Source of the DNA: a virus
Taxonomy: Duplodnaviria; Heunggongvirae; Uroviricota; Caudoviricetes
Strand: one strand, 5' to 3'
IMG/VR virus record: IMGVR_UViG_2718218135_000001
Span: 32,001 to 96,000 of that record
Length of the DNA stretch: 64,000 bases
This document shows, in pieces, positions 1-49,361 of this stretch. The notes under the pieces were generated by a model. It did not search any database. It saw nothing but the letters and a program-made list of their open reading frames with translations, and was not told the origin of the DNA. Made by a program: the position numbers and the translations under genes. Within the stretch, counting starts at the first letter, position 1. Each line of letters begins with the position of its first letter.

Positions 1-72
1 AAAAACGACTCGTGATACCACCCAAAAACAGACACGCTCAGAAGCGCTCCCGTTGCGTTATATTGGACATCT

Positions 73-86
73 AAACAAGTTGTTTT
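73..86. promoter_or_regulatory. AAACAA-N2-TTGTTT operator-like palindrome (copy 1)
   Basis: aaacaagttgtttt; same palindrome recurs at least 10 times in the window; here it precedes the A+C-rich non-coding tract. Confidence 0.45.
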
Positions 87-799
87 CAGACACAAGAAAA
101 CAAGCTAACCACACCCACAGGAAACCCAGAGACGCCATTACCCACATTCCCAAAAACAACCAACCTCTTTATGGCAGGCTACTGAAAAGACCCACCTCTT
201 CTTCCCAGGCTACCGGACAACCAACCTAACTTTCACAGGCAACTCGAAACATTCATACATGCGATACCCACTACACGCCATTCCCCAAACAGCGAATAAA
301 CACCAGAACCACTGAAACTCTAACGAAGCCTGTTACCGCAAGGACTCCCTCAATCCCCAAAGACACGAAACAGAACATTCGCGGGGAAACGCCATTACTC
401 AATACACAAATAACCACAAAAGCCTTTCACGCTCTCAAGACAAACAACTCAAATACAATAACGAAAGGAATCGCCCACCTGCCATTACTCCATACACAGA
501 GAAGAACAATCACCAAAACAACGAGAACAACCCTGACGAAAACACAGAGAAGAACCACCTCAAGAAGAACGAAACCACATATGCCGGTAGAAAGAACAAA
601 CCACCCATTTCACCCACAGGAATAGTCGCCGTATTGAGCGTTATCAGAGAGAAGGTTTATGCCCACATAAGAGAGAAAATTCGTGGGAGGTATAAGTGGG
701 AAGGGAAGGAGGGGTATCGCCACTTTCTTCGTATAAATTCAAGCCATAGTTTTCATCCCCCGTAACGTCCCTATCCACCCCTTCGGTCAGCCTTCGGGC

Positions 800-1000
800 C
801 ATCCAGGGAAAAGGCCATGTCCCTTTTCAGAAACGGGAGCGTCGCCGCAGGGAAAAGGCTGGAGGTTTTCAGGGAAACGGTGGGAATCCCGCTATACGAA
901 CCGGGAAAAGGCTGGCTGCCGGTCGGGAAACGGGTACATCCCGGTACAGAGCGAGGGACGACTGCGGGAGCGGTGCGGGAAATCTTCGGGAATGCGCCTT
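800..1000. repeat. iteron-like direct repeats
   Basis: repeated units AGGGAAAAGGC...TTTTCAG(A/G)GAAACGG at about 806, 850, 871, 903, 924, 977; the three overlapping ORFs here translate to low-complexity sequence. Confidence 0.5.
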
Positions 1001-1273
1001 GCTCTTCGCTCGCCTGAAAATCGCGAGGGAGTGTCGTTCCCTCTCGTGCAGCTGCTGAACTCCATTCTGCCAGACCATCCTCGGGTCTCAAGCGATTTCA
1101 GTAGGTTTTCGGGGAGAAGAAAATTCTGCCCACCAGCCCTGCGGCGCGCGTAGAGCAGAATATCGTAAATACTGGTTCCCGTGTCGTTCCCGGATATTCA
1201 CTGCCCAGCCTGGCTTTCACGACATAAAATCCTTTTTCGCCTTTGTCTTATTGCGACAATAACACCAACAAGT

Positions 1274-1287
1274 AAACAACATGTTTA
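1274..1287. promoter_or_regulatory. AAACAA-N2-TTGTTT operator-like palindrome
   Basis: aaacaacatgttta, 32 bp upstream of ATG 1319. Confidence 0.5.
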
Positions 1288-1318
1288 GACGTTATATAAA
1301 CGAAGTGAGGATGAAGAG

Positions 1319-1537
1319 ATGATTAAGATGCCTGTGACGGTTGAGGTGTGGGGCGTGGATTCCCTGGCTGAGTGTCTGGATGCAGTGGGGCCGGAGTTGT
1401 ACCGCAAGTTGTGGTCGTTCGTCCCGGCAGAAGGGGAATCGCCCAAAGGGAAGGATATCTGGCACCTGCTTAGTGAAGATGAAAAGCGGGAGCTGGTGGA
1501 CGCGGTACACAGCGAGTTCCCGGACGACGAAGATTAA
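1319..1537 (+). CDS. hypothetical small acidic protein (72 aa)
   Basis: ORF with GAGGA RBS and upstream operator palindrome. Confidence 0.5.
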   Translation: MIKMPVTVEVWGVDSLAECLDAVGPELYRKLWSFVPAEGESPKGKDIWHLLSEDEKRELVDAVHSEFPDDED

Positions 1538-1650
1538 GAGTGAGACCACCAGCACGGTGGCTTTTGTCGCTATTAACCTCCGGGGCAGCGCAGCACCGTA
1601 ACGATATACTTTGTGGCCGTTTTCTTACTGGTATTGTTTACGCAATTCAG

Positions 1651-1666
1651 AAAACAACATGTTTAA
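1651..1666. promoter_or_regulatory. AAACAA-N2-TTGTTT operator-like palindrome
   Basis: aaaacaacatgtttaa inside a ~60-bp promoter cassette that is duplicated at 2100-2158. Confidence 0.5.
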
Positions 1667-1676
1667 GGATTGCTTT

Positions 1677-2006
1677 ATGTTTGCAAATATCGACATCAAC
1701 CAAATCAAGAAAATGACTCAAAAAGAGTTTGACCAGTTTTATGAGTTAGAAGGTTGGTCTTCCACGCTGATCAATTCGCGCTGGGTGCTTGAGCTGATGA
1801 CTCGTGATGATGCTCCTGCTTTGATTATTTGCGACATGGGTGAAGATGCTGACTTTATGGATATGAGCGAATTTTGTGTGGACACATACAACCGCAGCCA
1901 GAAGTACTACTTCACATGCGATAGCGAGAATGACGTGATTTCTAAGCTCTATCTTCACCTTGTCCAGCATTGGGACGTGCAGGAATTCCTTGAGTTATTC
2001 GCGTAA
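1677..2006 (+). CDS. hypothetical protein (109 aa)
   Basis: in-frame ATG with AAGGA RBS 8 nt upstream; the longer track ORF start at 1611 lies inside the operator. Confidence 0.5.
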   Translation: MFANIDINQIKKMTQKEFDQFYELEGWSSTLINSRWVLELMTRDDAPALIICDMGEDADFMDMSEFCVDTYNRSQKYYFTCDSENDVISKLYLHLVQHWDVQEFLELFA

Positions 2007-2016
2007 GCCCAACCAA

Positions 2017-2037
2017 AGCCAGCACCGCCTGCTGGCT
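2017..2037 (+). terminator. hairpin after CDS (weak terminator candidate)
   Basis: agccagc-N7-gctggct stem, no clear T tract. Confidence 0.35.
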
Positions 2038-2140
2038 TAACTTCTCTGTAGCCGCAGGGAAGAACCACCTTTAGATAATTCATGTGCCTGAGCAATATGC
2101 TTTGTAGCCGTTTTTACACTGGTATTATTTACGCCATTGA

Positions 2141-2157
2141 GAAAACAATTTGTTTAC
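2141..2157. promoter_or_regulatory. AAACAA-N2-TTGTTT operator-like palindrome
   Basis: gaaaacaatttgtttac, 10 bp upstream of ATG 2167. Confidence 0.5.
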
Positions 2158-2166
2158 GGAGTGGTG

Positions 2167-2478
2167 ATGAATACTTCATTGGTGCTGGGTCTTGCTGAAG
2201 GCCAGGAGAGAAAAGAAAAACCAACCTTAATGGGGCATCTCACATTGCTGGATATCGTAGCGAATGGGACTTCTATCCGTCTGTTTCGTGAAAAAGCCAT
2301 TACCTTCGACGCGGGCAATTTTACGCGCTATGTGATGGTAGTTCGTCGCCAGCGTGGAAGAGGGTGGATGTCGGTCCAGAAAATGTGGCCAGAGGACCAG
2401 CTTGAACTGGCGCTGATGGAAGCCAACCGTGTCGCCCAACAAGAGATCCAACGAGCGTCTGTTCAGGCGGTAGCTTAA
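2167..2478 (+). CDS. hypothetical protein (103 aa)
   Basis: ATG with GGAGTGG RBS; followed by intrinsic terminator. Confidence 0.5.
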   Translation: MNTSLVLGLAEGQERKEKPTLMGHLTLLDIVANGTSIRLFREKAITFDAGNFTRYVMVVRRQRGRGWMSVQKMWPEDQLELALMEANRVAQQEIQRASVQAVA

Positions 2479-2513
2479 ACATGTGCAAGCAGTAGTTAGT
2501 CGAATGTACGACA

Positions 2514-2540
2514 GCCCCGCCAATCCTTCGGGGCTTTTTT
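2514..2540 (+). terminator. rho-independent terminator
   Basis: gccccg-loop-cggggc stem followed by TTTTTT. Confidence 0.7.
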
Positions 2541-2544
2541 GTAT

Positions 2545-2560
2545 TGTAAGTACTTACTTA
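2545..2560. promoter_or_regulatory. TAAGTA-N-TACTTA palindromic box (second motif family)
   Basis: tgtaagtacttactta immediately after the terminator and 40 bp before gene 2600. Confidence 0.5.
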
Positions 2561-2599
2561 TGATAATAAAATTAAAAATTAAACACTAAGGAGAGTGAA

Positions 2600-2995
2600 A
2601 TGACCGTTAAACGCGAAAATCTGACCCTGGATATGTATTATGCATCAGAGACGGAAAATGGAGACAAAGTTGCAAAAATTACAATTGTGCTACGCGATAA
2701 TACCTCCGGCGAAGAAGTTCACACCAGTACCTTAACTCGCACCGGCGAGGCCACAAAGGGGAAATATTCGGTGCGTTACCAAAGCATCAGTAATGCTTCT
2801 GACCCTTTACTGATAAAACTGGAAACTCATTTCCGTGGCGCGGATCAGACGTTGTTTGAAAATTTGATGAAAAAGGTCGATACGGTTTATACATCGAGTT
2901 TAAATACCAATAGTACCTGGATGGGACAACACGGTCTGCGAATAATCTCCGGCGAAAAGATCGACACCATTGTCCCTGAAAGCGTATTCGCTTAA
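2600..2995 (+). CDS. hypothetical protein (131 aa)
   Basis: strong RBS AAGGAGAG; terminator downstream. Confidence 0.55.
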   Translation: MTVKRENLTLDMYYASETENGDKVAKITIVLRDNTSGEEVHTSTLTRTGEATKGKYSVRYQSISNASDPLLIKLETHFRGADQTLFENLMKKVDTVYTSSLNTNSTWMGQHGLRIISGEKIDTIVPESVFA

Positions 2996-3007
2996 TCCTC
3001 TTTGAAT

Positions 3008-3032
3008 GGCGCGTAAACCGCGCCATTTTCTT
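3008..3032 (+). terminator. rho-independent terminator
   Basis: ggcgcg-taaac-cgcgcc hairpin followed by ATTTTCTT. Confidence 0.6.
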
Positions 3033-3041
3033 ATGCCCGAT

Positions 3042-3054
3042 AACAATTTGTTTT
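3042..3054. promoter_or_regulatory. AAACAA-N2-TTGTTT operator-like palindrome (half-degenerate)
   Basis: aacaatttgtttt upstream of gene 3113. Confidence 0.4.
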
Positions 3055-3112
3055 CTGCCTTATCTGATTTGTGAAAATGATTTCACTGAAGCAACTTAAT
3101 AAGGAAACCATC

Positions 3113-3487
3113 ATGGGACTTGATATCTATATCGAGACGCAGCCTAAAAACGATCTGAATAACGAGGCATCCAGAAAGCAGGTTGCTTACTTCCGTAAGT
3201 TCAATGCGCTCGTTGGGTGGATGGAGCGCAACGTAGGTGAAGTCGAAAATTGTGAGCTTTTAGAATTAACGATGAATGACATTTGTTTTCTGAAGGCTCA
3301 TTTGATGCACATAAACGAAAGTAATTGCGAAGAGTACTTGCCTACCCAGGAAGGTTTTTTCTTCGGCAGTCAGGAGTACGATGAAGGTTACTGGCATGAC
3401 GTGGATAAGCTGAAAAAACTTGTGGAAGACCTGATCAGGAACCACGACTTTCACAATAACAGACTGACGTTCCGTGCCTGGTGGTAA
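3113..3487 (+). CDS. hypothetical protein (124 aa)
   Basis: in-frame ATG with AAGGA RBS; the track ORF begins at GTG 3071. Confidence 0.5.
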   Translation: MGLDIYIETQPKNDLNNEASRKQVAYFRKFNALVGWMERNVGEVENCELLELTMNDICFLKAHLMHINESNCEEYLPTQEGFFFGSQEYDEGYWHDVDKLKKLVEDLIRNHDFHNNRLTFRAWW

Positions 3488-3489
3488 AT

Positions 3490-3633
3490 ATGGGCGATTT
3501 CAAGAAACGCCTGAAGGAAAGAGCCGAGATGGTCAGAAATCAAAACGCATCTTCTGTCATCAGATACGCAAGGCAGTTTAGTCGCAACAACAAATCAGTT
3601 GAGGAAAAGATCCTTAGCGCAATCGGGCGATAA
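3490..3633 (+). CDS. possible small basic protein (47 aa)
   Basis: ATG overlaps the upstream stop (TAAATATG); below the ORF-track length cutoff; hand-translated. Confidence 0.25.
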   Translation: MGDFKKRLKERAEMVRNQNASSVIRYARQFSRNNKSVEEKILSAIGR

Positions 3634-3638
3634 TTATT

Positions 3639-3662
3639 AAGGCCACCAGCAGTGGTGGCCTT
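3639..3662. terminator. 10-bp stem hairpin (terminator-like)
   Basis: aaggccacca-gcag-tggtggcctt perfect stem; no T tract. Confidence 0.35.
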
Positions 3663-3803
3663 AAATGACCATCCTGTTTCCCGCAGGCTAAAAACACCAA
3701 CCTCTTACCTCCAGGCAACCGACAAACCCACCTGTTCCCGTCCGGCTACCGCAACTTTCCACTTTGACGCCTTATTCGTACAACGATAATTAACACCAAC
3801 AAG

Positions 3804-3816
3804 AAAACAATTTGTT
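3804..3816. promoter_or_regulatory. AAACAA-N2-TTGTTT operator-like palindrome
   Basis: aaaacaatttgtt, 22 bp upstream of ATG 3838; flanking acaccaacaag element is shared with the 1260 copy. Confidence 0.5.
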
Positions 3817-3837
3817 ATTTACGATAAGGAATTAATC

Positions 3838-4320
3838 ATGAATTTTATCGCTACTGTAAACGCACCCGCACATGGCAATATCGCTGTAACGTTCTCTGAC
3901 ATTGAAAAACGAGTACTTGGTGCATGGCGCGACAATGAGACGGTAGAACTGTCAGCACAAGAAAAATGCATTATTGCACGCGACATCATTGGCAATCGTC
4001 GTTACTCGCGGGTATTTGAGAAAGCATATGTGGTAAATTCTGGATTCGGAACGTTCGTCTTTCCGGTGCGCTCCGGGCGATTCTGCCAGTCCAAGCTGAT
4101 TGAGTTCGCTACGCAGATTTCTGTCTGGATTAAAACTCAATCGTCGTTCAAATTTTCCGACGATGAAGCAGTATCGCAGGGGATGCGGATCGCCAACAAT
4201 GCAATAAAATGCAAAAACATTACGTATGCCGCTGGCGTTGACACATGGAAACTGTTTTGCGCTAACTTTATGCTGAATGTATACGCAAGCAACCGCATCC
4301 ACATCCTTGATGGCGTGTAA
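3838..4320 (+). CDS. hypothetical protein (160 aa)
   Basis: ORF with AAGGA RBS. Confidence 0.55.
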   Translation: MNFIATVNAPAHGNIAVTFSDIEKRVLGAWRDNETVELSAQEKCIIARDIIGNRRYSRVFEKAYVVNSGFGTFVFPVRSGRFCQSKLIEFATQISVWIKTQSSFKFSDDEAVSQGMRIANNAIKCKNITYAAGVDTWKLFCANFMLNVYASNRIHILDGV

Positions 4321-4328
4321 CTGAGAAG

Positions 4329-4352
4329 AGGGCCAGAAACGGCCCTTTCTCT
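4329..4352 (+). terminator. terminator-like hairpin
   Basis: agggcc-agaaac-ggccct followed by TTCTCT. Confidence 0.5.
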
Positions 4353-4368
4353 ATAGCCACCAGCTGCC

Positions 4369-4450
4369 GCAGGGAAATTTTCAGAAACGGCGAGGAACGC
4401 ATTCATGAGCCGAAGGGAAACGACCATGAAATTTTCTGGAAACGGCGGGG
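4369..4450. repeat. second cluster of iteron-like repeats
   Basis: agggaaattttcagaaacggcg and agggaaacgaccatgaaattttctggaaacggcg; same unit as at 800-1000. Confidence 0.45.
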
Positions 4451-4913
4451 GTCGCCTTTATGTAGAAAACTGAGCGGGAGAAACCCGGAATCGCGCCAGA
4501 AATTGCATAGCGGCGCTGGGTAGTTGCTGGTGGGCTTTCAGCCCCTGGGCCATCCAGATAGCTTTCGCTATGTGATTATGTGAATCCGTGGGTAAATCAC
4601 TGTAAGCGCGTACACGTTGCCCAACGTGGCAATCATATGCGAGCGGATACAAAACAACACAAAGAGCCGATCCGCGCCGACAAATAAACGCGGATCACAT
4701 AGCAAGACTAAAAGCCAATGATTAACCATACTCTATAGCGCAATATAACGCGTTTTAAGCGCGTTAATGTGTTAAGTAATGGGTATGTACTGACAAGGAT
4801 ATAAAAGCGCGTCTATGGCGTTATTTTGGTGCTTATTTTTATGTTGTTGGAGTGAGTTAAAGACAATAAAAAACGCGCCATCATTGGCGCGTTATGGTGG
4901 GAGTATTGGAAAC

Positions 4914-4950
4914 GAAAAAAGCGCCCATAGTGGGCGCTCGATTTTATTTG
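4914..4950. terminator. bidirectional intrinsic terminator
   Basis: A-run, palindrome gcgcccatagtgggcgc, then T-rich tract; identical palindrome recurs at 5194-5212. Confidence 0.55.
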
Positions 4951-5174
4951 TGTAAACTGATTTCAAATCCTATTTCTACAAACGCTTTCAACATTAAAAA
5001 GATATCAGCGTCATTCACGTCTGCTTTTTTTCGCTCCTGGTCGTTCAATAAGTCAATTTTGCGCGTTGTTTCATTTATAAACTCGACTGCGCGCCCAGCG
5101 ATCCCAGCGATCCCAGCGATGCGATTAACATAATATTCATTATGGACGTTAACGCCAGCGATAAGAACAAACAT
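4944..5174 (-). CDS. small protein (76 aa) with IAG x3 repeat
   Basis: AAGGAG RBS; contains the 9-bp tandem repeat. Confidence 0.5.
   Translation of the reverse strand: MFVLIAGVNVHNEYYVNRIAGIAGIAGRAVEFINETTRKIDLLNDQERKKADVNDADIFLMLKAFVEIGFEISLHK
5094..5120. repeat. 9-bp tandem repeat x3 (cccagcgat)
   Basis: direct reading; encodes IAGIAGIAG on the minus strand. Confidence 0.8.
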
Positions 5175-5192
5175 GATTAAGCTCCTTAAAAC

Positions 5193-5213
5193 TAGCGCCC
5201 ATAGTGGGCGCTA
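5193..5213. terminator. palindrome identical to the 4921 copy (terminator-like)
   Basis: tagcgcccatagtgggcgcta, between two minus-strand genes. Confidence 0.4.
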
Positions 5214-5224
5214 TATCCATCTAA

Positions 5225-5875
5225 TTACGCTTTGAAAGCATCAGCCAGATAGTTATAAAAATCATTTTTAACGAAGCGATATTGCTGTGATCCGTTTTTC
5301 GCTGCACCCATTCCTTTGATTTTTTCGACCAGTCCCAGACGTTCGCAAAGATTGATAAGCTGGTTGGCTTGAGTGTATCCAGCGTCTAATTTTATTTCGT
5401 TGGCTTTTTTCGCTTCATTCATTAAATCGAAAACAGCGCCATTAGTGAACGTCTCGATCTCGTCGTTAATCATATCGATTAGAGCGAATACGCGAGATCC
5501 GGACATATCAGCGACGGAATAAACGCATTTACCAGACTTAATGGATTTAACCAGATAAACCAATTTTTCCAGTGAATAACTATTAGTCATTGCTTCGCGG
5601 AAAAATGCTTCAGGTGCTTGTTTGCTTGCTTTAATCGCGTAGTAAAACACGCCAGCTAATTTTTCATCATTAACAGCGTTTAAAACGTTGTTCGTGAAAT
5701 AAGCTAATTTAGTAGACGCTGCAAGCATGTTAGCTTTATCCGCTTTTGTGTGTGTACCATTTTTATAATGATTGTTATAAGTCTGGGTAGCGTTGTTGGC
5801 TGCAACTTGTAACTCATTAGCGATAACCACAGCAGCGTCGATGATAGCTTTTTTAGAAATGGTAACGTTAGACAT
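5225..5875 (-). CDS. hypothetical protein (216 aa), AT-rich island
   Basis: ORF with AAGGA RBS; no recognisable motif. Confidence 0.55.
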   Translation of the reverse strand: MSNVTISKKAIIDAAVVIANELQVAANNATQTYNNHYKNGTHTKADKANMLAASTKLAYFTNNVLNAVNDEKLAGVFYYAIKASKQAPEAFFREAMTNSYSLEKLVYLVKSIKSGKCVYSVADMSGSRVFALIDMINDEIETFTNGAVFDLMNEAKKANEIKLDAGYTQANQLINLCERLGLVEKIKGMGAAKNGSQQYRFVKNDFYNYLADAFKA

Positions 5876-6189
5876 GATGTTAATCCTTAATAAGAGTAAA
5901 AATAAAATTCTTGTATCGTTAGCGTGTTCGCTTTCGATGTGAGTAATTATCGATATGCAGAAATTAAAATCAAGAGTTTTTTACGCGGGAGCGAAAAAAT
6001 TTTTATTCAATAAAAATCAAAGTCTTAGAAATAAAACGCGTTTTCTCGAAGGTGTTGCCTAAATAAATTCCCTATTCGGTCAATCACCCTTATATATTTA
6101 AAGTGAAATCGGGATTAGGGAAAATAAATATAACGGGAAGTGACACATAAAATAATAACCGGACTTAGCCGGTTATCACCCTTATAGAT

Positions 6190-6714
6190 TTAAAACGGTA
6201 AAATCCGTTCGACCCAATCGAAGAGAACTATCGTTCGTCCGCGCTCGCCAACTCTCATTGCGACCTGACAGGCATCAACGCCTAACGAACACCCCTCAAT
6301 TTCACGGCCATCCGCCATGTAGACCCTTATAGACTTTTGCGCCTCATGAGCTTGACGACAAATTTTGAAGAAATCGCGGCGAGATGGCCGATTGTCCACA
6401 TAGTCAGGGTGTACAGTGAGCCTACCTGTAAACATCTTGTCCACTTCGACAGGTGTAATTGTTTCTATGGTGCTAACTCGCTCCAATGGAAGACGAACAC
6501 GATGTTCTTTACTTCCTATAACGGGAGAAAGATCTAGCTTATTGCGTGCGGTAAGCAGACCAATAACGTAAAGACAAAACGTCTGACCATCATCGATCGT
6601 GACCCTTACAGGTATATTCCTTGCCCGTAGGAACTGCAAACTAAACTCCACGTTAGAGTAGTCGCGGGGCCAGACCTCTGCTGGGATGCCGTATGTAATG
6701 TCTGTGATCGTCAT
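6190..6714 (-). CDS. hypothetical protein (174 aa), translationally coupled to upstream gene
   Basis: start overlaps upstream stop (TAATG). Confidence 0.55.
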   Translation of the reverse strand: MTITDITYGIPAEVWPRDYSNVEFSLQFLRARNIPVRVTIDDGQTFCLYVIGLLTARNKLDLSPVIGSKEHRVRLPLERVSTIETITPVEVDKMFTGRLTVHPDYVDNRPSRRDFFKICRQAHEAQKSIRVYMADGREIEGCSLGVDACQVAMRVGERGRTIVLFDWVERILPF

Positions 6715-7304
6715 TAGTCTACCTTAAGTGGCGTGTCGAGAAGCCCAAACTTAAACTGCTTGCTACCTGCCACGAGGAAGGGGGCTTCGATGTAAATGGT
6801 TTTGTTGTCGATATCTGATTTTGCGGTCTTTTTGATGTCTTTTAGAAGCCTAATTGTTGCTGCGTTGTCCAGAACAAGTACTTTGCCGGTCGCATCATTG
6901 CCGATTTTGCCGTATGTCGTGAACGATTCATTACTGCCAACGCGGATATTAATCGGGCAACCGCTCTTGGCGATCTCATCACAGTACATAGTTCCATCAA
7001 TCACATTTAGTAGACCGTAGGTTGGAACAAGAGCCTTGCCAGAGTTGGTGCTTGTTCCTTCTTTGACAGCTGTACCCATGATTTGAAGGCGCATATGTTC
7101 TGATTCACCGGAAATCAGTGTTTCTTCCGCGTTATCGGAATACCTGAACCATACAGGTTGAACTGTTCCTCTGGCCTCGTATTTTACATTGTCTAGGGTA
7201 GTGAACTTGCTGTACGTTTTTTGCATGTCAGCAACCATATCTGACACTGCATTGGCAGAGAATGATAGAATATAGGTGGTTACTAAGATGGCTAAACGAG
7301 TCAT
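6714..7304 (-). CDS. hypothetical secreted protein (196 aa)
   Basis: N-terminal signal peptide MTRLAILVTTYILSFSANA; GAGGT RBS. Confidence 0.55.
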   Translation of the reverse strand: MTRLAILVTTYILSFSANAVSDMVADMQKTYSKFTTLDNVKYEARGTVQPVWFRYSDNAEETLISGESEHMRLQIMGTAVKEGTSTNSGKALVPTYGLLNVIDGTMYCDEIAKSGCPINIRVGSNESFTTYGKIGNDATGKVLVLDNAATIRLLKDIKKTAKSDIDNKTIYIEAPFLVAGSKQFKFGLLDTPLKVD

Positions 7305-7602
7305 TCTGACCTCAAATTAACGATATGCTATTTCCAACAGAAGATGCTGCTTATAAACGCCTCAAGATGAAATCTGAATAATTTGTCTTTGAAAAAATTT
7401 CTCGCCATGAGTGATTTTACGCTCTAGCGAATTAAGAATTTCGTTAATGAAAATATTCATCCACCACCTCTGGCTCAAATTCCTCGGTTGTGAAGCCTAC
7501 AAATATTCGTCAACCGATCAAGAACTTTTTTTTCAGCCGGAGGTGTGCGAAATTGTGATATAAATCACATGCTGACATCTACAGACGCCAGCATATTGAT
7601 GA

Positions 7603-8142
7603 TTATTTGTCCAGCACTTTGTACTTGTTCGTAATCAAACGCTCACCCTTTCTGGTAACTGTAAAACCAAACGGCGCTTTGCTGTTTTTACGTAACACGC
7701 TTTCAGCGAGCGCTTCATCGGTAGGTTGTATAGTTGAATTGTCTATCCAGTCGATGAGGGTAAGAAAGTTTAAAAGTTTCATGCTCGTGACGCCCATCTT
7801 ACAGGCTATGTCACGGACGGTACGAATCTGCCTGCATTTTGTTTCATGTGCTGCGATAGGTGTCTTTGAATTGTTTGGTGTCAGTAACGTATCCAGTGTA
7901 TTAAAGAACCCCCTTGCGGATTCAGACTTAATAAGACCTGAGTCGCTCATATCACACGCGATACGGTACAGAATATTGCTGTTGTTCATGAAGGGATAGT
8001 TCTCAACGAATCTGACGAATGCTTGTGCATTTTTCTCTCCGCATTTGTAATCCAGCGGATTATCTACGCGCCAGAAAAATGCACTGTTGTTTTTTGCGTC
8101 AAAGATATCAACAAATGGTAGTTCAGCTAAATAGTTCATCAT
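7603..8142 (-). CDS. hypothetical protein (179 aa)
   Basis: ORF; start codon lies inside a 12-bp inverted repeat (8137-8175). Confidence 0.5.
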   Translation of the reverse strand: MMNYLAELPFVDIFDAKNNSAFFWRVDNPLDYKCGEKNAQAFVRFVENYPFMNNSNILYRIACDMSDSGLIKSESARGFFNTLDTLLTPNNSKTPIAAHETKCRQIRTVRDIACKMGVTSMKLLNFLTLIDWIDNSTIQPTDEALAESVLRKNSKAPFGFTVTRKGERLITNKYKVLDK

Positions 8143-8204
8143 GTGCTCCTTTGTAACTTGACGAGCACATGATGAACTACGAAATAAGGGGAAAAAGTGG
8201 AAGA

Positions 8205-8483
8205 TTACGGCAGCCGTTTGAGAATATCGGCCAGATCTTCTTTGGTCATACCCGAGTTTTCGTAAATCTTCATGACCTTTTCACGAGCCTTTGCAGTAGT
8301 CTCTAATGACGTAGCTATCTTATCAAAATCACCCATCGTCATATTGGACAGCACCAGATTGATGATGTCTGCCTTTGACAGTTTTATGCTGCGTTCACGC
8401 AGTCGATTCTGAAAGGTCTCTAGTTTATCGTTTGCTTTTTCGGTTAACTTAACCTGGCAGTTAATAGCGCGTTTCTCGCTCAT
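8205..8483 (-). CDS. hypothetical protein (92 aa) coupled to helicase
   Basis: starts 3 nt after the helicase stop. Confidence 0.5.
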   Translation of the reverse strand: MSEKRAINCQVKLTEKANDKLETFQNRLRERSIKLSKADIINLVLSNMTMGDFDKIATSLETTAKAREKVMKIYENSGMTKEDLADILKRLP

Positions 8484-8485
8484 GC

Positions 8486-10045
8486 TTACTCTCTATCCAA
8501 AACAGTGAAATCGAATGTGCTGCCAACCGGCAAGACCCCCTCGGCAAACCCAGGCGTCGTGTCGATAATGTGTTTCCGCTCATATGAATGCGACATGAGG
8601 TATTTGTTGCTCACGTCGATGAAGTCGGTAATAAAGCACACGTTAGCCTGATTTTTCTTGGCTCGTAAGCCACGACCGACACGCTGTCTCATTTCAACTT
8701 CTGCTTTCCCGCCACCACCCAGAATCACCGCGCCTACGCTTGGAACGTCGACACCAACATCCAGAATGGTTGAACCAATGAGAACATCTATCTTGCCTGC
8801 CGCCAGACTATTAAGTTTTGCTTGTCGGGTAGTCTGGTTTGATTCTCCGTAGATGAAATCGACCTTGAGGCCACTCTCTTTCATCATTTCCATCAAGATC
8901 TGACCATGACGCTTCAGACGAACCAATGTCATACAGTTCAGACCGTGACTCTTGTACATTAGCGCTTCACGCACAATAGCTTCGTTGCGGCCCAGATTAT
9001 AGACGATGCCTAACTGATAGGCTTTCTGGTAAGCCGTGCTCATTCCAACCCTAAAATTCAGGTGTTTTGAAGCAAGTTCGGCTCTAATCCGCGTCTCATC
9101 TGGAGTGTACGCGATTTTATGATATAAAAAGTATGGTTTCGCTAAAATACCTCTGTCGATCAAATATTTCTCCGTTACTTTTATCTCGATGCGACCCGCA
9201 ACGGCCATGAGACGCATATTTGCTTCAGTCGAGTCCTTCATGAACGGCGTAGCTGTCAGCGCCAGACGGTAGTCGGCATTGGTACACAACCGGGCTATAT
9301 CGTAGAAGTTTGAGCCGGATGATTCGTGCGCTTCTTCCAGAATCAGCAGAGAAACGCTGGACAGGAAGCGCTTAACCAATTCCCGGCGTTTCAGGTGATA
9401 CTGTTTTTTCTCTGGAGATGCGTCGCGCGACGGCTCTTCGAGAAAACTAGCAAGGGTCTGAACCGTGGCAACGTTGATATGGCGCGATACCTGAAACTCA
9501 CCAGATCCAATCACCCCAACTTTCTGACCTTTCAGCCACGGCTCGCCATTCTTCGCGCGGTAGTCGATGGATTTCTGGAAGTTCTCTGCCATCTGGAACA
9601 TCAGAACCGAGCGCGTGGTTAAAAACAGCGTCATACGACCAATGCGAGCTGCTGCCTTACACGCTACGTTCGATTTACCGCCACCCGTCGCAATCTGGGC
9701 AATCATCATCCCTTCGCGCACCAGTGTTTCCACTGTCTGATCCTGATACGCGTAGTCCGGGTTATACGGGAATGGATTAACCACCGGATTCGGCTTACCC
9801 AGCGCGGGAGCTTTTTCCTTGCGAACATGCACGCATTTGATGCCAGCTTTCAGAAGATTGGTCGCAACTGGCTTCGCAAACCCAGCCGGGAACGCGTTTT
9901 TACTCCAGTTGAACATCGTGCTGGTCCCTTTCCAGTCACCAGCCTCCACTTCATAGCTCAACATCTCCTGAACAAGCCGTTTCACGTTGTCATCAGCGCC
10001 AGAAATCAGCGCATTGACTGCATTTGATACAATCCGAACAGTCAT
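8486..10045 (-). CDS. superfamily-2 DEAD/DEAH-box helicase
   Basis: Walker A IATGGGKS, DEAH-type box LILEEAHE, SF2 motif order; AAGGAAAGAGG RBS. Confidence 0.8.
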   Translation of the reverse strand: MTVRIVSNAVNALISGADDNVKRLVQEMLSYEVEAGDWKGTSTMFNWSKNAFPAGFAKPVATNLLKAGIKCVHVRKEKAPALGKPNPVVNPFPYNPDYAYQDQTVETLVREGMMIAQIATGGGKSNVACKAAARIGRMTLFLTTRSVLMFQMAENFQKSIDYRAKNGEPWLKGQKVGVIGSGEFQVSRHINVATVQTLASFLEEPSRDASPEKKQYHLKRRELVKRFLSSVSLLILEEAHESSGSNFYDIARLCTNADYRLALTATPFMKDSTEANMRLMAVAGRIEIKVTEKYLIDRGILAKPYFLYHKIAYTPDETRIRAELASKHLNFRVGMSTAYQKAYQLGIVYNLGRNEAIVREALMYKSHGLNCMTLVRLKRHGQILMEMMKESGLKVDFIYGESNQTTRQAKLNSLAAGKIDVLIGSTILDVGVDVPSVGAVILGGGGKAEVEMRQRVGRGLRAKKNQANVCFITDFIDVSNKYLMSHSYERKHIIDTTPGFAEGVLPVGSTFDFTVLDRE

Positions 10046-10109: not shown

Positions 10110-10808
10110 ATGGATTGTATCAAAAATATGGATGTGAAAATTACGATTCTACAGGTGGAAGTCGCGAACCTGCGTCCGAACCCCTGGAATACCAACTCCG
10201 TTGGGGCGCAAAACTTCGAAAAACTGAAAGGTTCCATCGAAAAGTTGGGCTTTTTTAAGCCAATTCTGGCGCGAGAGCTGGACGGCGGCATTTTTGAGAT
10301 TCTCGGTGGCGAACATCGCTGGCGTGCCGCGATGGAGCAGGGCATTTCAACGGTTCCCGTAATGTCGGTGGGAAAAATTAACGACCTGGTGGCCAAACAG
10401 ATGTCTCTCGTCGATAACGAGCGCTACGGCGAAGACGATCAGATCGCTTTGCAACGCTTAATCGAAGAAATTCAGTCTGAAATTGACTACCGGTTGTCTG
10501 ATATCGCCCCGTATGACGACGAAATGGCGGCAACGCTCGCCAAAGCATCCGTTATCGATCTTGAAGCGCTGGAAGCGCTCTCCCGCGGCGATGACGAGCC
10601 GGTCGGTGAGGACAAACGCGAGAAAATCGAGCGAGTCGGTGCTGAACACCAGACGATGCGCTTCAAGGTGACGTTCGATGCGTCAGATCGCGTCGCCGAT
10701 ACCATCAAAACCATCATCAAAGAGCAGGGAATCAATACCGGTAACGAAATGGAGAACGCCGGGGAAGCCTTGGTGTGGCTGGTCGACTACTACAAGGAGC
10801 GTATGTAA
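10110..10808 (+). CDS. ParB-like nuclease-domain protein 1
   Basis: ParB/Srx N-domain signature LRPNPWN ... GGEHRWRAA; start choice uncertain. Confidence 0.7.
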   Translation: MDCIKNMDVKITILQVEVANLRPNPWNTNSVGAQNFEKLKGSIEKLGFFKPILARELDGGIFEILGGEHRWRAAMEQGISTVPVMSVGKINDLVAKQMSLVDNERYGEDDQIALQRLIEEIQSEIDYRLSDIAPYDDEMAATLAKASVIDLEALEALSRGDDEPVGEDKREKIERVGAEHQTMRFKVTFDASDRVADTIKTIIKEQGINTGNEMENAGEALVWLVDYYKERM

Positions 10809-11476
10809 TGACCAAGAACTTTGAAATCGTATATCGAAACCCGGCAGAACTTATCCCGTATGAGATGAACGCCAAAAAACATGACGAACAGCAGATCCAC
10901 GACCTGGCGGCTGCCATCAAAAAGCGCGGTTTTGACCAGCCGATCACGGTCGACAAGCACGACGTCATCATTACTGGTCACGGTCGTCGCGAGGCGGCAC
11001 TTCTGGCTGGTCTGGAGCGTGTGCCTGTCATCGTTCGCGACGATCTGAGCGAAGAAGAAGTGAAGGCGAAGCGTCTTGAAGACAACCGCCTGGCCAGTAT
11101 TGACTACGACGCCATCAAATTGCAGCAGGAACTGGAGTCCCTGGTGCTGGGTGACGTTGAGGTCTTTGGTTTTGAAGAGCGAGAGCTGAACGTGCTTGTT
11201 GGCAGCATGACCGAAGAGATGGAAACAGGCTCTCTGGTGCTCGATCTGGGTGAAGAGACGGAACGCCAGAAAGAAGAGCACACCGAGATCAGTCGCGAAG
11301 TGGCCTCTGAAGAAGTCCGAGTCATCGACGTATTGGGCTTTAAAACGCTCCCTGCTGGCTCTGCCATTGTGGTTGGGGATTTGCTTGCCCACATGGAAGA
11401 AATTACGGGAGAAAGCGGGGTAGACGCTTTCGTGGCGTATGCGGAGAAAGTTTCCTCTGGGGAGCTGGCTGCATGA
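10808..11476 (+). CDS. ParB-like nuclease-domain protein 2
   Basis: HGRREAA arginine motif; start overlaps upstream stop (TAATG). Confidence 0.7.
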   Translation: MTKNFEIVYRNPAELIPYEMNAKKHDEQQIHDLAAAIKKRGFDQPITVDKHDVIITGHGRREAALLAGLERVPVIVRDDLSEEEVKAKRLEDNRLASIDYDAIKLQQELESLVLGDVEVFGFEERELNVLVGSMTEEMETGSLVLDLGEETERQKEEHTEISREVASEEVRVIDVLGFKTLPAGSAIVVGDLLAHMEEITGESGVDAFVAYAEKVSSGELAA

Positions 11477-13726: not shown

Positions 13727-14368
13727 ATGACTGTAGAAAAAGACGAGAGCAAAACTCGCCTGACACCAGCTGAGTGGGCAGAAGCCGAAGCGAAATGGAC
13801 TTCTGGCGAATACACACTCTCCAGGCTGGAGGAAGAGTACGGCATTCGTCGTGAAACGCTCTCCAGACATTTCAAAAAGCGTGGATTAGAGAAAGGCGCG
13901 GACTCCGTTGGGAAGATGGTGCGCGAGTCGCTCAAATCCGACGCAGAGCTGCGTGCGAAGGCGCGTGCAGAGAAAATCGAAGAGCGCCGGACTCGTTACG
14001 ACGATTGGGCGTTCGCACTCGGTCGTATGGTGATGCATGAGGTGGCCATAGCCAAGAAGGACGGCAGGCCACTGGCAGCCATCGAAGATGACCTGAAGAG
14101 TCTCCAGCGTGCCAGCGGCACACTTGCTAAGTGCTTCGAAATATCGTCGAAAGCGCTCGGTATGGATCGCGTGGAGAACGAGGACGACGAAATCCCGAAC
14201 CTGGTATTTGGCGAACTTACGCCTTCCCAGGTGGCGCAGCTGCGTAAGGAAGATGATGAGCCGGATCTGATTGATGACGATCTGCTTGAGTCACTCGAAG
14301 AGGAAGCACTGAGCGAAGCTGAGGGCGATTCTGAAGCGTCTGGTGATGAAAGTGATGGGAGCGTCTGA
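13727..14368 (+). CDS. terminase small subunit (putative)
   Basis: 213 aa immediately upstream of TerL; acidic C-terminal tail. Confidence 0.55.
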   Translation: MTVEKDESKTRLTPAEWAEAEAKWTSGEYTLSRLEEEYGIRRETLSRHFKKRGLEKGADSVGKMVRESLKSDAELRAKARAEKIEERRTRYDDWAFALGRMVMHEVAIAKKDGRPLAAIEDDLKSLQRASGTLAKCFEISSKALGMDRVENEDDEIPNLVFGELTPSQVAQLRKEDDEPDLIDDDLLESLEEEALSEAEGDSEASGDESDGSV

Positions 14369-20037: not shown

Positions 20038-20870
20038 TGGCACAGATCGACACGTACCGTAGCGGGGAAGCCGTTTCCCTGTCGTTTGCATTTAACGTTC
20101 TGGATATTGAGTCGGCAACGTATACCGTCAGAGATGGCGCGGGTTCGATCATCGTTGATAACGAACCTCTCGATATTACTGAGGGGCAGATGTCCATTCC
20201 GGTTGTCGTGTCGGCCGAACACAACCTGCTTGCCGACAAAGAGCGCGATCTGCGTTACGTCCTCGTCAAAGCGGTGGCATCCGGTCTGACGCATGAAGAG
20301 CGCAAGATGTACGTTCTGCTAAATAGCTTCGAGCTGTCTATCCCAGGCCAGTCATTCGCAACGGTCGCAGACGCCCAGATGCAAGCCATCGACATGCTGA
20401 ACGGCGACACTCTGTTGGCTGATGGTGACGGGCTGATGCGCAAACGTCTCATTGAGGCCACCAGACGCGTCAAAACGCTGCCGTTTTCAATCCGCAAAGT
20501 CCTTCGTATCGATTTCGATCGGTACGACCGTCCACAAAACATGCTGAACGTATATGACGTACCGTGGGGTGCTGACGGGGCATATCGTCACGATCTGATT
20601 GATTGGGAGAAGATGACGCAGGATAAATTCGACGAATTCCCTGACTACTTCAAACAGACATTAATGCTGGCCGTGGTTAATGAAGCCTGCGAAATCGCTA
20701 ACGGCAATGACGTAGCGGCAGCTCGCGAGGACGGCATCCTGTCTGAATCCATTGGTGAAACGACAAATATGTACCGCACCGGCAAAGCGGCAAATTTACA
20801 TGTGGCTCGCAGTACCTGGAGACTGCTGGTCAGCTACATCAACAACCGCATGATTGTTCGCCGTGCGTAA
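20037..20870 (+). CDS. hypothetical head-tail region protein (277 aa)
   Basis: ORF in structural block; ATGA-type overlap with upstream gene. Confidence 0.5.
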   Translation: MAQIDTYRSGEAVSLSFAFNVLDIESATYTVRDGAGSIIVDNEPLDITEGQMSIPVVVSAEHNLLADKERDLRYVLVKAVASGLTHEERKMYVLLNSFELSIPGQSFATVADAQMQAIDMLNGDTLLADGDGLMRKRLIEATRRVKTLPFSIRKVLRIDFDRYDRPQNMLNVYDVPWGADGAYRHDLIDWEKMTQDKFDEFPDYFKQTLMLAVVNEACEIANGNDVAAAREDGILSESIGETTNMYRTGKAANLHVARSTWRLLVSYINNRMIVRRA

Positions 20871-38614: not shown

Positions 38615-39195
38615 TGGCATTCAGAATGAGTGAACAACCACGGACCATAAAAATTTATAATCTGCTGTCCGGAACTAATGAATTTATTGGTGAAGGTGAT
38701 GCATATATTCCGCCTCATACAGGTCTGCCAGCAAACAGTACCGATATTGCACCGCCAGATATTCCGGCAGGCTTCGTGGCTGTTTTCAACAGTGATGAGG
38801 CATCGTGGCATCTCGTTGAAGATCATCGGGGAAAAACCGTCTATGACGTGGCTTCCGGCGACGCGTTATTTATTTCTGAACTCGGTCCGTTACCGGAAAA
38901 TGTTACCTGGTTATCACCGGATGGGGAATATCAGAAGTGGGACGGCACATCCTGGGAGAAGGATGAGGAAACAGAAAAATTGTTTCAGGTACGGGAAGCG
39001 GAAGAAACAAAAAAAAGTCTGATGCAGGTAGCCAGCGAGCACATTGCGCCACTTCAGGATGCTGTAGATTTGGAGATTGCAACGGAGGAAGAAGCATCGT
39101 TGCTGACTGCATGGAAGAAGTATAGAGTTTTATTGAACCGCATTGACACATCAACGGCACCGGATATTGACTGGCCAACAATACCAGCAGAGTAA
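38614..39195 (+). CDS. tail fibre assembly protein (Tfa-like)
   Basis: 193 aa directly after fibre gene, TAATG overlap. Confidence 0.75.
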
Positions 39196-49351: not shown

Positions 49352-49361
49352 AAAAAATCCT

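What the first reader, a model, noticed from the sequence alone, without database searches (positions are those of the whole stretch)
4369..4450. Second, shorter cluster of the same iteron-like unit
Two units of AGGGAAA...TTTTC(A/T)GGAAACGGCG closely match the 800-1000 array, giving two separated binding-site clusters that could loop together or serve as origin plus control locus.
Basis: seen in the sequence. Interest (0 to 1): 0.4.

Follow-up and report, generated by a model that had tools for sequence, protein, structure and literature searches.

The report
Paired GGGAAACGG-box clusters in a phage-plasmid
Two separated clusters of the same short sequence box are real and are conserved in a large family of phage-plasmids that includes the plague plasmid pMT1; they are not the plasmid's replication repeats, and may instead be RNA binding sites for an Hfq-like regulator encoded 1.7 kb away.

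Summary
Window 4369-4450 holds four copies of a box (core GGGAAA[A/C]GG, often preceded by TTTTC). It aligns in order with boxes 2-4 of the six-box array at 803-935. No shuffle (0/1000) and no genomic control window (0/1524) scored as well.

The window is an SSU5/pHCM2/pMT1-type phage-plasmid. Both clusters sit at the same places in relatives from E. coli, Salmonella, Klebsiella, Enterobacter and Yersinia. In 12 relatives, 34 of 43 box columns are invariant against 10 of 39 spacer columns.

The 'iteron' reading is only partly supported. The plasmid RepA iterons in pHCM2 have an unrelated sequence. No DnaA boxes or AT-rich stretch lie nearby. pMT1 lacks the first array yet persists as a plasmid.

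Best explanation, about 40% confidence: the boxes act on + strand transcripts. These are the 5' leader and 3' tail of a small-gene operon. The candidate binder is the FljA-family protein at 6190-6714, which models as two tandem Hfq/Sm domains. FljA is reported to block fliC mRNA translation, and both fliC leaders examined contain the box core.

The main rival, about 35%, is a double-stranded DNA site array for an unidentified phage protein. No binding was tested.

The parts
803..935 (+). Array 1. Six boxes alternate between type A (GGGAAAAGGC) and type B (TTTTC-N-GGGAAACGG). They lie at 803-816, 825-838, 847-860, 869-882, 900-913 and 922-935. The G before the A-run sits at 808, 830, 852, 874, 905 and 927.
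   Evidence: position-weight-matrix scores 10.8-19.1; conserved in relatives
940..1040 (+). Degenerate G-rich tail of array 1, with GGGA motifs: GAGGGAC, GCGGGAG, GCGGGAAAT, TCGGGAAT, GAGGGAG.
   Evidence: read from the sequence; GC skew +0.23 at 801-1000
1319..4320 (+). Run of small + strand genes of unknown function (PHROGs 6757, 7645, 5125, 2473, 7971, 1641) bracketed by the two box clusters. Whether they form one operon is an inference.
   Evidence: same gene order in relatives
3838..4320 (+). ORF160 (phrog_1641), the last gene before cluster 2. It occurs only in this phage-plasmid family.
   Evidence: its Cyrano orthologue CYRAN_111 is expressed in lysogens
4330..4352 (+). Hairpin GGGCC-AGAAAC-GGCCC followed by TTTCTCT, 10 nt after the ORF160 stop codon. 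The loop carries a box-like CAGAAACGG (UGGAAAC in most relatives).
   Evidence: mean column identity 0.94 in 12 relatives
4370..4378 (+). Cluster 2, box 1: CAGGGAAAT.
   Evidence: CCGCAGGGAA is invariant in 12 relatives
4378..4390 (+). Cluster 2, box 2: TTTTCAGAAACGG. It is identical to 824-836 in array 1.
4413..4423 (+). Cluster 2, box 3: AAGGGAAACGA (CCGA[A/C]GGGAAACGGCC in relatives).
4432..4446 (+). Cluster 2, box 4: TTTTCTGGAAACGGC.
4444..4456 (+). Second hairpin, GGCG-GGGGT-CGCC followed by TTTATG. It is a terminator-like end of the box-bearing stretch.
4475..4486 (+). Degenerate box CGGGAGAAACCC. GCGGGAG is conserved in relatives.
6190..6714 (-). Gene for an FljA-family protein (PF03614) that models as two tandem Sm/Hfq-like domains. 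It is the candidate binder of the boxes; this is an inference, not shown.
   Evidence: present in all relatives examined

Best explanation
The two clusters are copies of one conserved multi-site binding platform. I think it most likely works at the RNA level. The boxes (core GGGAAA[A/C]GG) all lie on the + strand, the sense strand of the neighbouring genes. Array 1 would therefore sit in the long 5' leader of a run of small + strand genes (1319-4320). Cluster 2 would sit in the roughly 130-nt 3' tail after the last gene, starting in the loop of its terminator-like hairpin.

The proposed binder is the phage-plasmid's own FljA-family protein (6190-6714, - strand), 1.7 kb away. Its predicted structure is two tandem Hfq/Sm-type beta-barrels, so it would bind single-stranded purine-rich RNA and probably acts as an oligomer. 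Binding several boxes at both ends of the transcript would control translation, decay or termination of that operon, or the RNA would titrate the protein.

Shown here: the boxes, their conservation, their strand, the protein fold and the motif resemblance to fliC leaders. Inferred: that the boxes are transcribed, that this protein binds them, and what binding does.
For: 1. The boxes are under selection. In 12 relatives 34/43 box columns are invariant against 10/39 spacer columns. The core GGGAAACGG is intact even in the most diverged relative found, whose ORF160 is 51% identical.
2. All boxes in both clusters and in all relatives share one orientation, the sense strand of the flanking genes. 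The first box-like copy lies in the loop of the hairpin right after ORF160.
3. An FljA-family gene (PF03614, E 6.4e-69) lies 1.7 kb away in every relative examined. This includes plasmids of Klebsiella and Y. pestis, which are non-motile by textbook knowledge, so the protein should have a role inside the element.
5. FljA is reported to prevent fliC mRNA translation (PMC2652032, citing Bonifield & Hughes 2003 and Yamamoto & Kutsukake 2006). Both fliC leaders I retrieved carry the box core: E. coli ..GAGCCGACGGGTGGAAACCC.. and Salmonella ..ACGGTGAGAAACCGT... E. coli-type phage-plasmids share the 12-mer TGAGCCGACGGG with the E. coli leader, directly ahead of AAAC.
6. In LF82 lysogens carrying the related phage-plasmid Cyrano, the ORF160 orthologue (35/16) and the FljA-like gene (18/18) are expressed above the floor of about 5 (PMC9928086 Table S1).
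7. The + strand of the arrays folds no better than shuffles in most relatives tested, as expected of an open binding platform.
Against: - No binding, transcript-end or strand-specific RNA data exist for the boxes themselves.
- The resemblance to fliC leaders is weak statistically. A 6-7-nt core is expected by chance in about 3% of 65-nt leaders (my own rough estimate). The 12-mer match was 1 of 300 shuffles but came from 16 comparisons.
- The phage-plasmid clade is only 36-38% identical to genuine chromosomal FljA, so its specificity may differ.
- The known FljA target is a 5' leader next to a start codon. Cluster 2 is 3' of a gene, and array 1 ends about 380 nt before the first start codon.
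- The boxes are not preferentially presented in hairpin loops: 75% have a closing stem of at least 3 bp against 73% expected.
- The roughly 22-nt register, kept through ±1 compensating changes between diverged lineages, is classic for DNA sites on one face of the helix.
- Rfam finds no RNA family here.
Confidence: 0.4

Rival explanations
1. The boxes are double-stranded DNA sites for a phage-plasmid DNA-binding protein that has not been identified. Possible roles are a lytic replication origin with a distant control locus (as in P4 ori/crr), a pair of operator clusters that loop out and silence the 3.5-kb operon between them, or recognition sites for DNA packaging.
For: - The core is 9-14 bp long, in direct repeats with a 22/31-bp register in array 1. 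Diverged spacers keep it: 22, 22, 22, 31, 22 against 22, 23, 21, 31, 23.
- In cluster 2 the anchors are spaced 10, 33 and 22 bp, all near multiples of a helical turn.
- Two clusters bracket an operon.
- Candidate DNA binders are conserved nearby: ORF216 (5225-5875), at least 90% identical in most relatives listed and with a C-terminal winged-helix-like element; a probable ribbon-helix-helix protein at 8205-8483, judged from its sequence; two ParB_N proteins at 10110-11476; and a UvsW-like helicase at 8486-10045.
- By prior experience, conserved repeat boxes in phage and plasmid intergenic DNA are most often DNA sites.
Against: - They are not the RepA iterons.
- No DnaA boxes are found in the first 17 kb, and there is no AT-rich unwinding stretch beside either cluster.
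- The register is not kept in the most diverged relative (37, 28, 24, 34).
- The replication genes (DnaB-like, primase) lie 40 kb away, and the terminase genes 9 kb away.
- The ORF216 orthologue is silent in lysogens, and its fold search was uninformative.
- No protein could be tied to the motif.
Confidence: 0.35
2. The G-rich transcripts act as a CsrB-like or Hfq-binding sponge that titrates a host RNA-binding protein (CsrA or Hfq).
For: About 18 GGA motifs lie in 670-1040 and 4-5 in cluster 2 (read). CAGGGA and CGGGA fit the ANGGA type of CsrA site (my own knowledge). U-rich TTTTC tracts and terminator-like hairpins are present.
Against: - Conservation extends well beyond GGA, to GGGAAA[A/C]GGC.
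- No Rfam hit to CsrB, CsrC or Rsm families even at E=1.
- The GGA motifs are not enriched in hairpin loops.
- There is no recognisable promoter or terminator for a separate small RNA around array 1.
Confidence: 0.07
3. The clusters are G-cluster zones that favour R-loops when transcribed, serving as R-loop origins or recombination hotspots. The nearby UvsW-like helicase would be the R-loop remover, as at T4 origins.
For: More than 12 GGG clusters lie on the non-template strand in 800-1040. A UvsW-like helicase is encoded at 8486-10045. Chi sites are locally dense, six in 1130-4533.
Against: G clusters alone would not need the invariant AAA[A/C]GG part of the box. Cluster 2 is short and only mildly G-skewed. 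No data bear on R-loops.
Confidence: 0.05
4. The second cluster is a functionless relic of an old duplication of part of array 1.
For: Cluster 2 is collinear with boxes 2-4 of array 1, so it arose by duplication.
Against: It is kept in all 783 plasmid records that match the gap. The boxes are far better conserved than their spacers. It is retained in pMT1 although array 1 was lost.
Confidence: 0.05

Closest known systems
Plasmid and phage iterons, including split sets such as P1 oriR/incA and P4 ori/crr
   Same: Direct repeats of one core with a register of about 22 bp, in two clusters a few kb apart. Strongly conserved cores and free spacers.
   Different: The element's own RepA iterons are a different sequence. 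There is no adjacent initiator gene, no DnaA boxes and no AT-rich stretch. One cluster is dispensable for plasmid life in pMT1. The comparison with P1 and P4 rests on my own knowledge.
FljA and the fliC mRNA 5' leader (flagellar phase variation)
   Same: A protein of the same Pfam family is encoded beside the clusters. The [G/A]GAAAC core of the box occurs in the E. coli and Salmonella fliC leaders.
   Different: Here there are 10 or more sites in two arrays instead of one leader. They are not next to a start codon. The hosts include non-flagellated species. The protein is only about 37% identical to chromosomal FljA.
Multi-site RNA platforms for oligomeric RNA-binding proteins (CsrB/CsrA, TRAP with its (G/U)AG repeats, Hfq with A-R-N repeats)
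   Same: Many copies of a short purine-rich motif on one strand, little stable structure, and a candidate binder with an Sm fold.
   Different: The box is longer (9-14 nt) and the spacing wider (about 22 nt) than in those systems. There is no Rfam match. The binder and the transcript are not demonstrated.
Lambda cosB R sites bound by the small terminase subunit gpNu1
   Same: From memory, the R-site core CGTTTCC is the complement of GGAAACG in the box, and R sites occur as a small phased group.
   Different: The clusters are 9-13 kb from the terminase genes. The putative small subunit (13727-14368) has no Nu1 domain. No cos-like end is known. This is a resemblance recalled from memory and was not tested.

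Membership tests
Rep-protein iterons (replication origin or copy-control locus) | Tandem direct repeats of one 17-22-bp unit in a constant register of about two helical turns | tested here: inconclusive
   The array 1 register is 22, 22, 22, 31, 22, and 22, 23, 21, 31, 23 in a diverged lineage. Only 9-14 bp of each unit are conserved. Cluster 2 is spaced 10, 33, 22, and relative L173 37, 28, 24, 34.
Rep-protein iterons (replication origin or copy-control locus) | Same sequence as the repeats flanking the element's initiator gene | tested here: not met
   The pHCM2 repA gene is flanked by at least 12 copies of CTACTCTCTACAGTGGTTA, which has no similarity to GGGAAACGG.
Rep-protein iterons (replication origin or copy-control locus) | Adjacent AT-rich unwinding element and DnaA boxes | tested here: not met
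   No TTWTNCACA within 17 kb. GC is 0.52-0.61 at the clusters.
Rep-protein iterons (replication origin or copy-control locus) | Bound by an initiator and required in cis for replication | not testable with these tools
   Indirect only: pMT1 lacks array 1 and is a stable plasmid.
FljA operator on RNA (fliC-leader type) | An FljA-family protein encoded by the same replicon | tested here: met
   PF03614, E 6.4e-69, full length; present in all relatives examined.
FljA operator on RNA (fliC-leader type) | Sequence resemblance to the fliC 5' leader | tested here: inconclusive
   The core [G/A]GAAAC is present in the E. coli and Salmonella leaders. A 12-mer is shared with E. coli-type elements (1/300 shuffles, 16 comparisons). 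The exact FljA binding site is not known to me.
FljA operator on RNA (fliC-leader type) | Located in a 5' untranslated leader close to the ribosome-binding site of the regulated gene | tested here: not met
   Cluster 2 lies 3' of ORF160. Array 1 ends about 380 nt before the first start codon at 1319.
FljA operator on RNA (fliC-leader type) | Transcribed, and bound by the protein | not testable with these tools
   Only gene-level expression of the neighbours in a related lysogen is available.
CsrB/RsmZ-type CsrA sponge RNA | Match to a curated family model | tested here: not met
   No Csr or Rsm hit at E up to 1 in 1-9000, nor at gathering score in the whole window.
CsrB/RsmZ-type CsrA sponge RNA | GGA motifs displayed in hairpin loops | tested here: not met
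   Closing stems of at least 3 bp occur in 75% of boxes against 73% expected from shuffled flanks. MFE z-scores are mostly at or above 0.
Structured non-coding RNA (any) | Conserved secondary structure with covariation | tested here: not met
   The region has no stability above shuffles. The only long-range complement, CCACCAGC/GCTGGTGG, is a pair of Chi sites without compensatory change.

The most novel reading that the evidence does not exclude
The clusters are the natural multi-site RNA target, or decoy, of a phage-plasmid tandem-Sm (Hfq-like) protein of the FljA family. That would make a self-contained protein-RNA regulatory pair comparable to CsrA-CsrB, carried by pMT1, pHCM2 and SSU5-type elements. 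It would also mean that Salmonella and E. coli FljA recognise fliC mRNA through the same GRGAAAC element. Flagellar phase-variation control would then derive from, and could be hijacked by, a phage-plasmid regulator.
Probability: 0.3. Interest if true: 0.75.

Novelty: new variant of a known kind. Interest (0 to 1): 0.55.

Why it matters
This family of roughly 100-kb phage-plasmids includes Y. pestis pMT1, S. Typhi pHCM2, and widespread Klebsiella and E. coli plasmids, some of which are reported to carry resistance genes. Almost nothing is known about how these elements regulate themselves.

A strongly conserved, unannotated pair of cis elements flanking an operon of unknown genes is a concrete handle on that regulation. 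If the RNA model holds, three things follow:
- FljA-family proteins would be defined as tandem Sm/Hfq-like RNA binders. No paper in the searched library holds FljA together with 'Sm-like', or with Hfq, in a way that makes this link.
- They would gain a recognition motif.
- Carriage of such plasmids could be predicted to silence host flagellin.

If the DNA model holds, the clusters mark an unknown origin, operator pair or packaging site.

Tried and rejected
- **Rfam.** A scan of 1-9000 at E up to 1, and of the whole window at gathering score, found nothing at the clusters. The only nearby hit is a weak Hrs1-like match at 4865-4931.
- **Folding.** Neither strand of either cluster, nor six relatives, is clearly more stable than shuffles on the + strand. 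The - strand z of -3.8 at cluster 2 is explained by the two opposed Chi octamers.
- **Long-range stem CCACCAGC/GCTGGTGG around cluster 2.** Rejected. The left copy is mutated in SSU5 and S. Anatum without compensation, and the octamer is Chi.
- **Hairpin-loop display of the boxes.** No better than shuffled flanks.
- **Pairing between the ACC-rich repeats (153-249, 3662-3751) and the G-rich clusters.** Not above shuffles.
- **RepA iterons.** A different sequence. **DnaA boxes:** none nearby.
- **Published Y. pestis sRNAs on pMT1.** sR082 maps beside the phospholipase D gene, and sR083 lies between YP_pMT127 and YP_pMT128. Neither is in the region matching this locus.
- **The motif outside the family.** A two-box pattern scan of viral contigs gave only SSU5-like contigs plus scattered single chance hits.
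- **A second '160-aa gene' next to array 1 in one relative.** It is a spurious ORF in the A+C-rich leader, 6% identical.
- **Diversity-generating retroelement repeats, CRISPR-like repeats and T7-type promoters.** Considered from the sequence and dropped: there is no reverse transcriptase, no Cas genes and no phage RNA polymerase in the window.
- **The primary FljA papers.** They could not be read.

Full report
**What the window is.** The first 9 kb match SSU5-like phage-plasmids. Identity is 86-89% to Salmonella phage SSU5 and to the Escherichia phages Cyrano, PhiR41_1 and CMS-2020a. It is up to 98% to IncFIB-typed E. coli plasmids, and 790 plasmid records from Klebsiella, Escherichia, Enterobacter, Yersinia, Salmonella and others match. 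The relatives include Y. pestis pMT1, S. Typhi pHCM2 and K. pneumoniae pKPHS1. The rest of the window carries ParB_N proteins, terminase, portal and tail genes, a DnaB-like helicase, a primase and a ligase. The plasmid initiator gene repA lies outside the window.

**Where the finding sits.** Positions 4369-4450 lie at the left end of a 620-nt gap between convergent genes. On the left is ORF160 (3838-4320, + strand, phrog_1641). On the right is a 76-aa ORF (4944-5174, - strand). ORF160 is the last of a run of small + strand genes of unknown function that starts at 1319. Upstream of that run is about 1.3 kb without convincing genes, and it contains the array at 803-935.

**Checking the observation.**
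- They resolve into four boxes with the core GGGAAA[A/C]GG. Two of these are preceded by TTTTC. A fifth box-like copy lies in the loop of the hairpin GGGCC-AGAAAC-GGCCC, 10 nt after the ORF160 stop codon.
- A local alignment of 4369-4450 with 795-945 scores 32. None of 1000 shuffles reach this (mean 14.6, sd 2.4). None of 1524 control windows from the same 64 kb reach it (maximum 24).
- The alignment is collinear with array boxes 2-4, so cluster 2 is a paralogue of part of array 1.
- GGGAA is about 40-fold enriched in the array. Near-matches to GGGAAACGG concentrate in the two clusters.

The similarity is therefore far better than chance for G+C-rich sequence of this length.

**Anatomy.**
- Array 1 has six boxes that alternate between GGGAAAAGGC and (TTTTC)N-GGGAAACGG. 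Taking the G before the A-run as anchor, the anchors sit at 808, 830, 852, 874, 905 and 927, which gives spacings of 22, 22, 22, 31 and 22 nt.
- A diverged E. coli lineage, whose spacers are largely different, has spacings of 22, 23, 21, 31 and 23. Klebsiella types have 22, 22 and 23 (both read).
- In cluster 2 the anchors are at 4374, 4384, 4417 and 4439.
- In the most diverged relative found (L173, ORF160 51% identical) all boxes read GGGAAACGG, but the spacings are 37, 28, 24 and 34.
- Every box, in both clusters and in every relative, is on the same strand as the flanking genes.

**Conservation.** The gap is found in 783 plasmid records. In an alignment of 12 diverse relatives, 34 of 43 box columns are invariant against 10 of 39 spacer columns inside the finding. 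Sixty-one distinct versions from viral contigs tell the same story. Array 1 is present in all lineages examined except pMT1, where that region has been rearranged next to an IS1541 copy.

**What it is not.**
- It is not the plasmid iterons. In pHCM2, repA is flanked by at least 12 copies of CTACTCTCTACAGTGGTTA.
- It has no origin hallmarks. No DnaA boxes occur within 17 kb, and the clusters are the most G+C-rich part of the region.
- It is not a described RNA family, and it is not a stably folded RNA.
- The octamers CCACCAGC (4357) and GCTGGTGG (4526) could pair around cluster 2. They are in fact Chi sequences, which occur 19 times in the window against 1.7 expected. The left one varies in relatives without compensation.
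- Published Y. pestis sRNAs on pMT1 map elsewhere.

**A candidate binder.** The gene at 6190-6714 (- strand) is a full-length member of Pfam PF03614, 'repressor of phase-1 flagellin', the FljA family (E 6.4e-69).
- It is present in every relative examined, including plasmids of Klebsiella and Y. pestis. Those hosts are non-motile by textbook knowledge.
- The phage-plasmid proteins form their own clade, at least 53% identical to each other and 36-38% identical to chromosomal FljA.
- The alignment shows two internal repeats. The AlphaFold model (pLDDT 82.8) is twice [one helix plus five strands].
- That fits the literature statement that FljA prevents translation of fliC mRNA (PMC2652032, citing Bonifield & Hughes 2003 and Yamamoto & Kutsukake 2006).
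- No paper in the searched library connects FljA with the Sm/Hfq fold.

**Link between the family's known target and the boxes.** I retrieved two fliC leaders. The E. coli K-12 leader reads ..GACGGCGATTGAGCCGACGGGTGGAAACCCAATACG... The Salmonella leader reads ..GGGTTACGGTGAGAAACCGTGGGCAACAGCCC... Both contain [G/A]GAAAC, the core of the box, near their 5' ends, in otherwise diverged sequence. E. coli-type phage-plasmids, Cyrano among them, read ..CATGAGCCGACGGGAAACGGCC.. at box 3. They thus share the 12-mer TGAGCCGACGGG with the E. coli leader, directly ahead of AAAC.

This evidence is suggestive, not strong. The 12-mer reached 1/300 shuffles but was one of 16 comparisons. By my own rough estimate, a 6-7-nt core is expected by chance in about 3% of leaders.

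**Expression.** In the published LF82 lysogen data for Cyrano, the ORF160 orthologue (35/16) and the FljA-like gene (18/18) are above the floor of about 5. The 92-aa gene next to the helicase is high (149/80). The orthologues of ORF216 and ORF76 are at the floor (PMC9928086 Table S1). So + strand transcription running toward cluster 2, and the candidate binder, co-exist in lysogens. The data are per gene and say nothing direct about the clusters.

**Most likely mechanism (about 0.4).** The boxes are single-stranded RNA sites on + strand transcripts. Array 1 lies in the long 5' leader. That leader also begins with 640 nt of A+C-rich, G-poor sequence (GC skew -0.36 to -0.5). Cluster 2 lies in the 3' tail of ORF160, between two hairpins. 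An oligomer of the tandem-Sm FljA-like protein binds several boxes. It would either control translation, decay or termination of the small-gene operon, or be titrated by these RNAs. The same protein may also act on host fliC mRNA. Every step after 'the boxes exist, are conserved, are on the sense strand and resemble fliC leader elements' is inference.

**Main rival (about 0.35).** The boxes are DNA sites for an unidentified protein: a lytic origin plus control locus, a looping operator pair, or a packaging signal.
- In favour: the two-turn register kept through diverged spacers, the two-cluster layout, and several conserved candidate DNA binders nearby. Chief among these is ORF216, which is at least 90% identical in most relatives listed.
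- Against: the missing origin hallmarks, the lost register in L173, the distance from the replication and terminase genes, and the lack of any link from a protein to the motif.

**Minor rivals.** These are a CsrA or Hfq sponge (conservation goes far beyond GGA, and there is no Rfam hit), R-loop-prone G clusters, and a functionless duplicate (contradicted by the conservation).

**Comparison with known systems.** The clusters work like iterons in layout, but they fail the membership tests that could be run: identity with the Rep-gene repeats, and origin features. They resemble CsrB-, TRAP- or Hfq-type multi-site RNA platforms in composition and strand bias, but not in motif length or spacing. 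They share a protein family and a short core with the FljA-fliC leader system, but not its position next to a start codon. I therefore file the pair as a new variant of a known kind, a conserved multi-site binding platform, with the molecule bound still open.

**Verdict.** The feature is real, strongly conserved and unannotated. The iteron/origin interpretation is only partly supported. The most interesting reading that survives is a phage-plasmid Sm-protein/RNA-array pair related to flagellar phase control. Interest 0.55.

Noticed in passing
window, whole; locally 1130-4533: The Chi octamer GCTGGTGG occurs 19 times in 64 kb against 1.7 expected (0/100 shuffles). Six lie in the first 4.6 kb. 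Several sit inside terminator-like hairpins (1546-1560, about 3640-3660), and one opposed pair brackets cluster 2 (4357-4364 on the - strand, 4526-4533 on the + strand).
   Followed up: partly
window 74, 1275, 1653, 2144, 3042, 3806, 13675, 41852, 44781, 62417 and others: The palindrome AACAANTTGTT occurs 14 times against 3.3 expected. Where checked (1275, 2144, 3806, 13675 before the putative small terminase gene, 44781 before the DnaB-like helicase gene) it lies a few tens of nt upstream of a gene start; at 1653 it overlaps the start codon. It looks like a genome-wide operator or translational operator of this phage-plasmid.
   Followed up: partly
window 153-249 and 3662-3751: A second repeat family also occurs as two separated clusters: three copies each of ACC[A/C]ACCT..CAGGC[T/A]AC[C/T]G at a spacing of about 30 nt. 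Each lies 650-700 nt upstream of a GGGAAACGG cluster. It shows no significant RNA pairing with the G-rich clusters.
   Followed up: partly
window 1-640: A 640-nt non-coding stretch that is A+C-rich and G-poor on the + strand (GC skew -0.36 to -0.5, AT skew up to +0.63). It has internal 24-nt repeats (494-577) and GCCATTAC repeats (277-509). It resembles a Rho-loading region if transcribed. Gene callers sometimes place a spurious 160-aa ORF here.
   Followed up: no
window 6190-6714 (- strand): The FljA family (PF03614) models as two tandem Hfq/Sm-like domains. No paper in the searched library makes this connection. The phage-plasmid clade is distinct from chromosomal FljA, at 36-38% identity.
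   Followed up: yes
window 5225-5875 (- strand): ORF216 (phrog_1513) is at least 90% identical in most relatives listed, from several genera. It is much better conserved than its neighbours. It has no family or PDB match, and its confident AlphaFold model (pLDDT 88) is a helical bundle plus a small C-terminal winged-helix-like unit.
   Followed up: partly
window 4872-4893, 4919-4939, 5189-5212: The 76-aa ORF (4944-5174) is flanked on both sides by the same hairpin, AGCGCCCATAGTGGGCGCT, and a second terminator lies just beyond. The right half of the gap (4560-4940) is full of hairpins on both strands and is conserved, with a weak Hrs1-like Rfam hit (E 0.004).
   Followed up: no
L173 6730-6800 (most diverged relative): Downstream of its cluster 2 this relative has a run of about eight GCTAAA[C/T]GG-type short tandem repeats that the window lacks.
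   Followed up: no
window 20069-20082 (- strand): A single, very good box, ACAGGGAAACGGCT (position-weight-matrix score 18.3, second best in the window), lies antisense inside a + strand ORF in the virion-gene part of the window. Its conservation was not checked.
   Followed up: no
window 48341-54106; 38957-39155; 59235-59309: Cargo and small features: a chaperone-usher fimbrial operon (usher, PapD-like chaperone, fimbrial subunit) next to a gene for an integrase-core (rve) transposase; an Rfam IS009 match; and a tRNA-Asn gene.
   Followed up: no
window 8205-8483 (- strand): The 92-aa protein next to the UvsW-like helicase has a ribbon-helix-helix-like N-terminus, judged from its sequence. Its Cyrano orthologue CYRAN_117 is among the most highly expressed phage-plasmid genes in lysogens (149/80 against a floor of about 5).
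   Followed up: no
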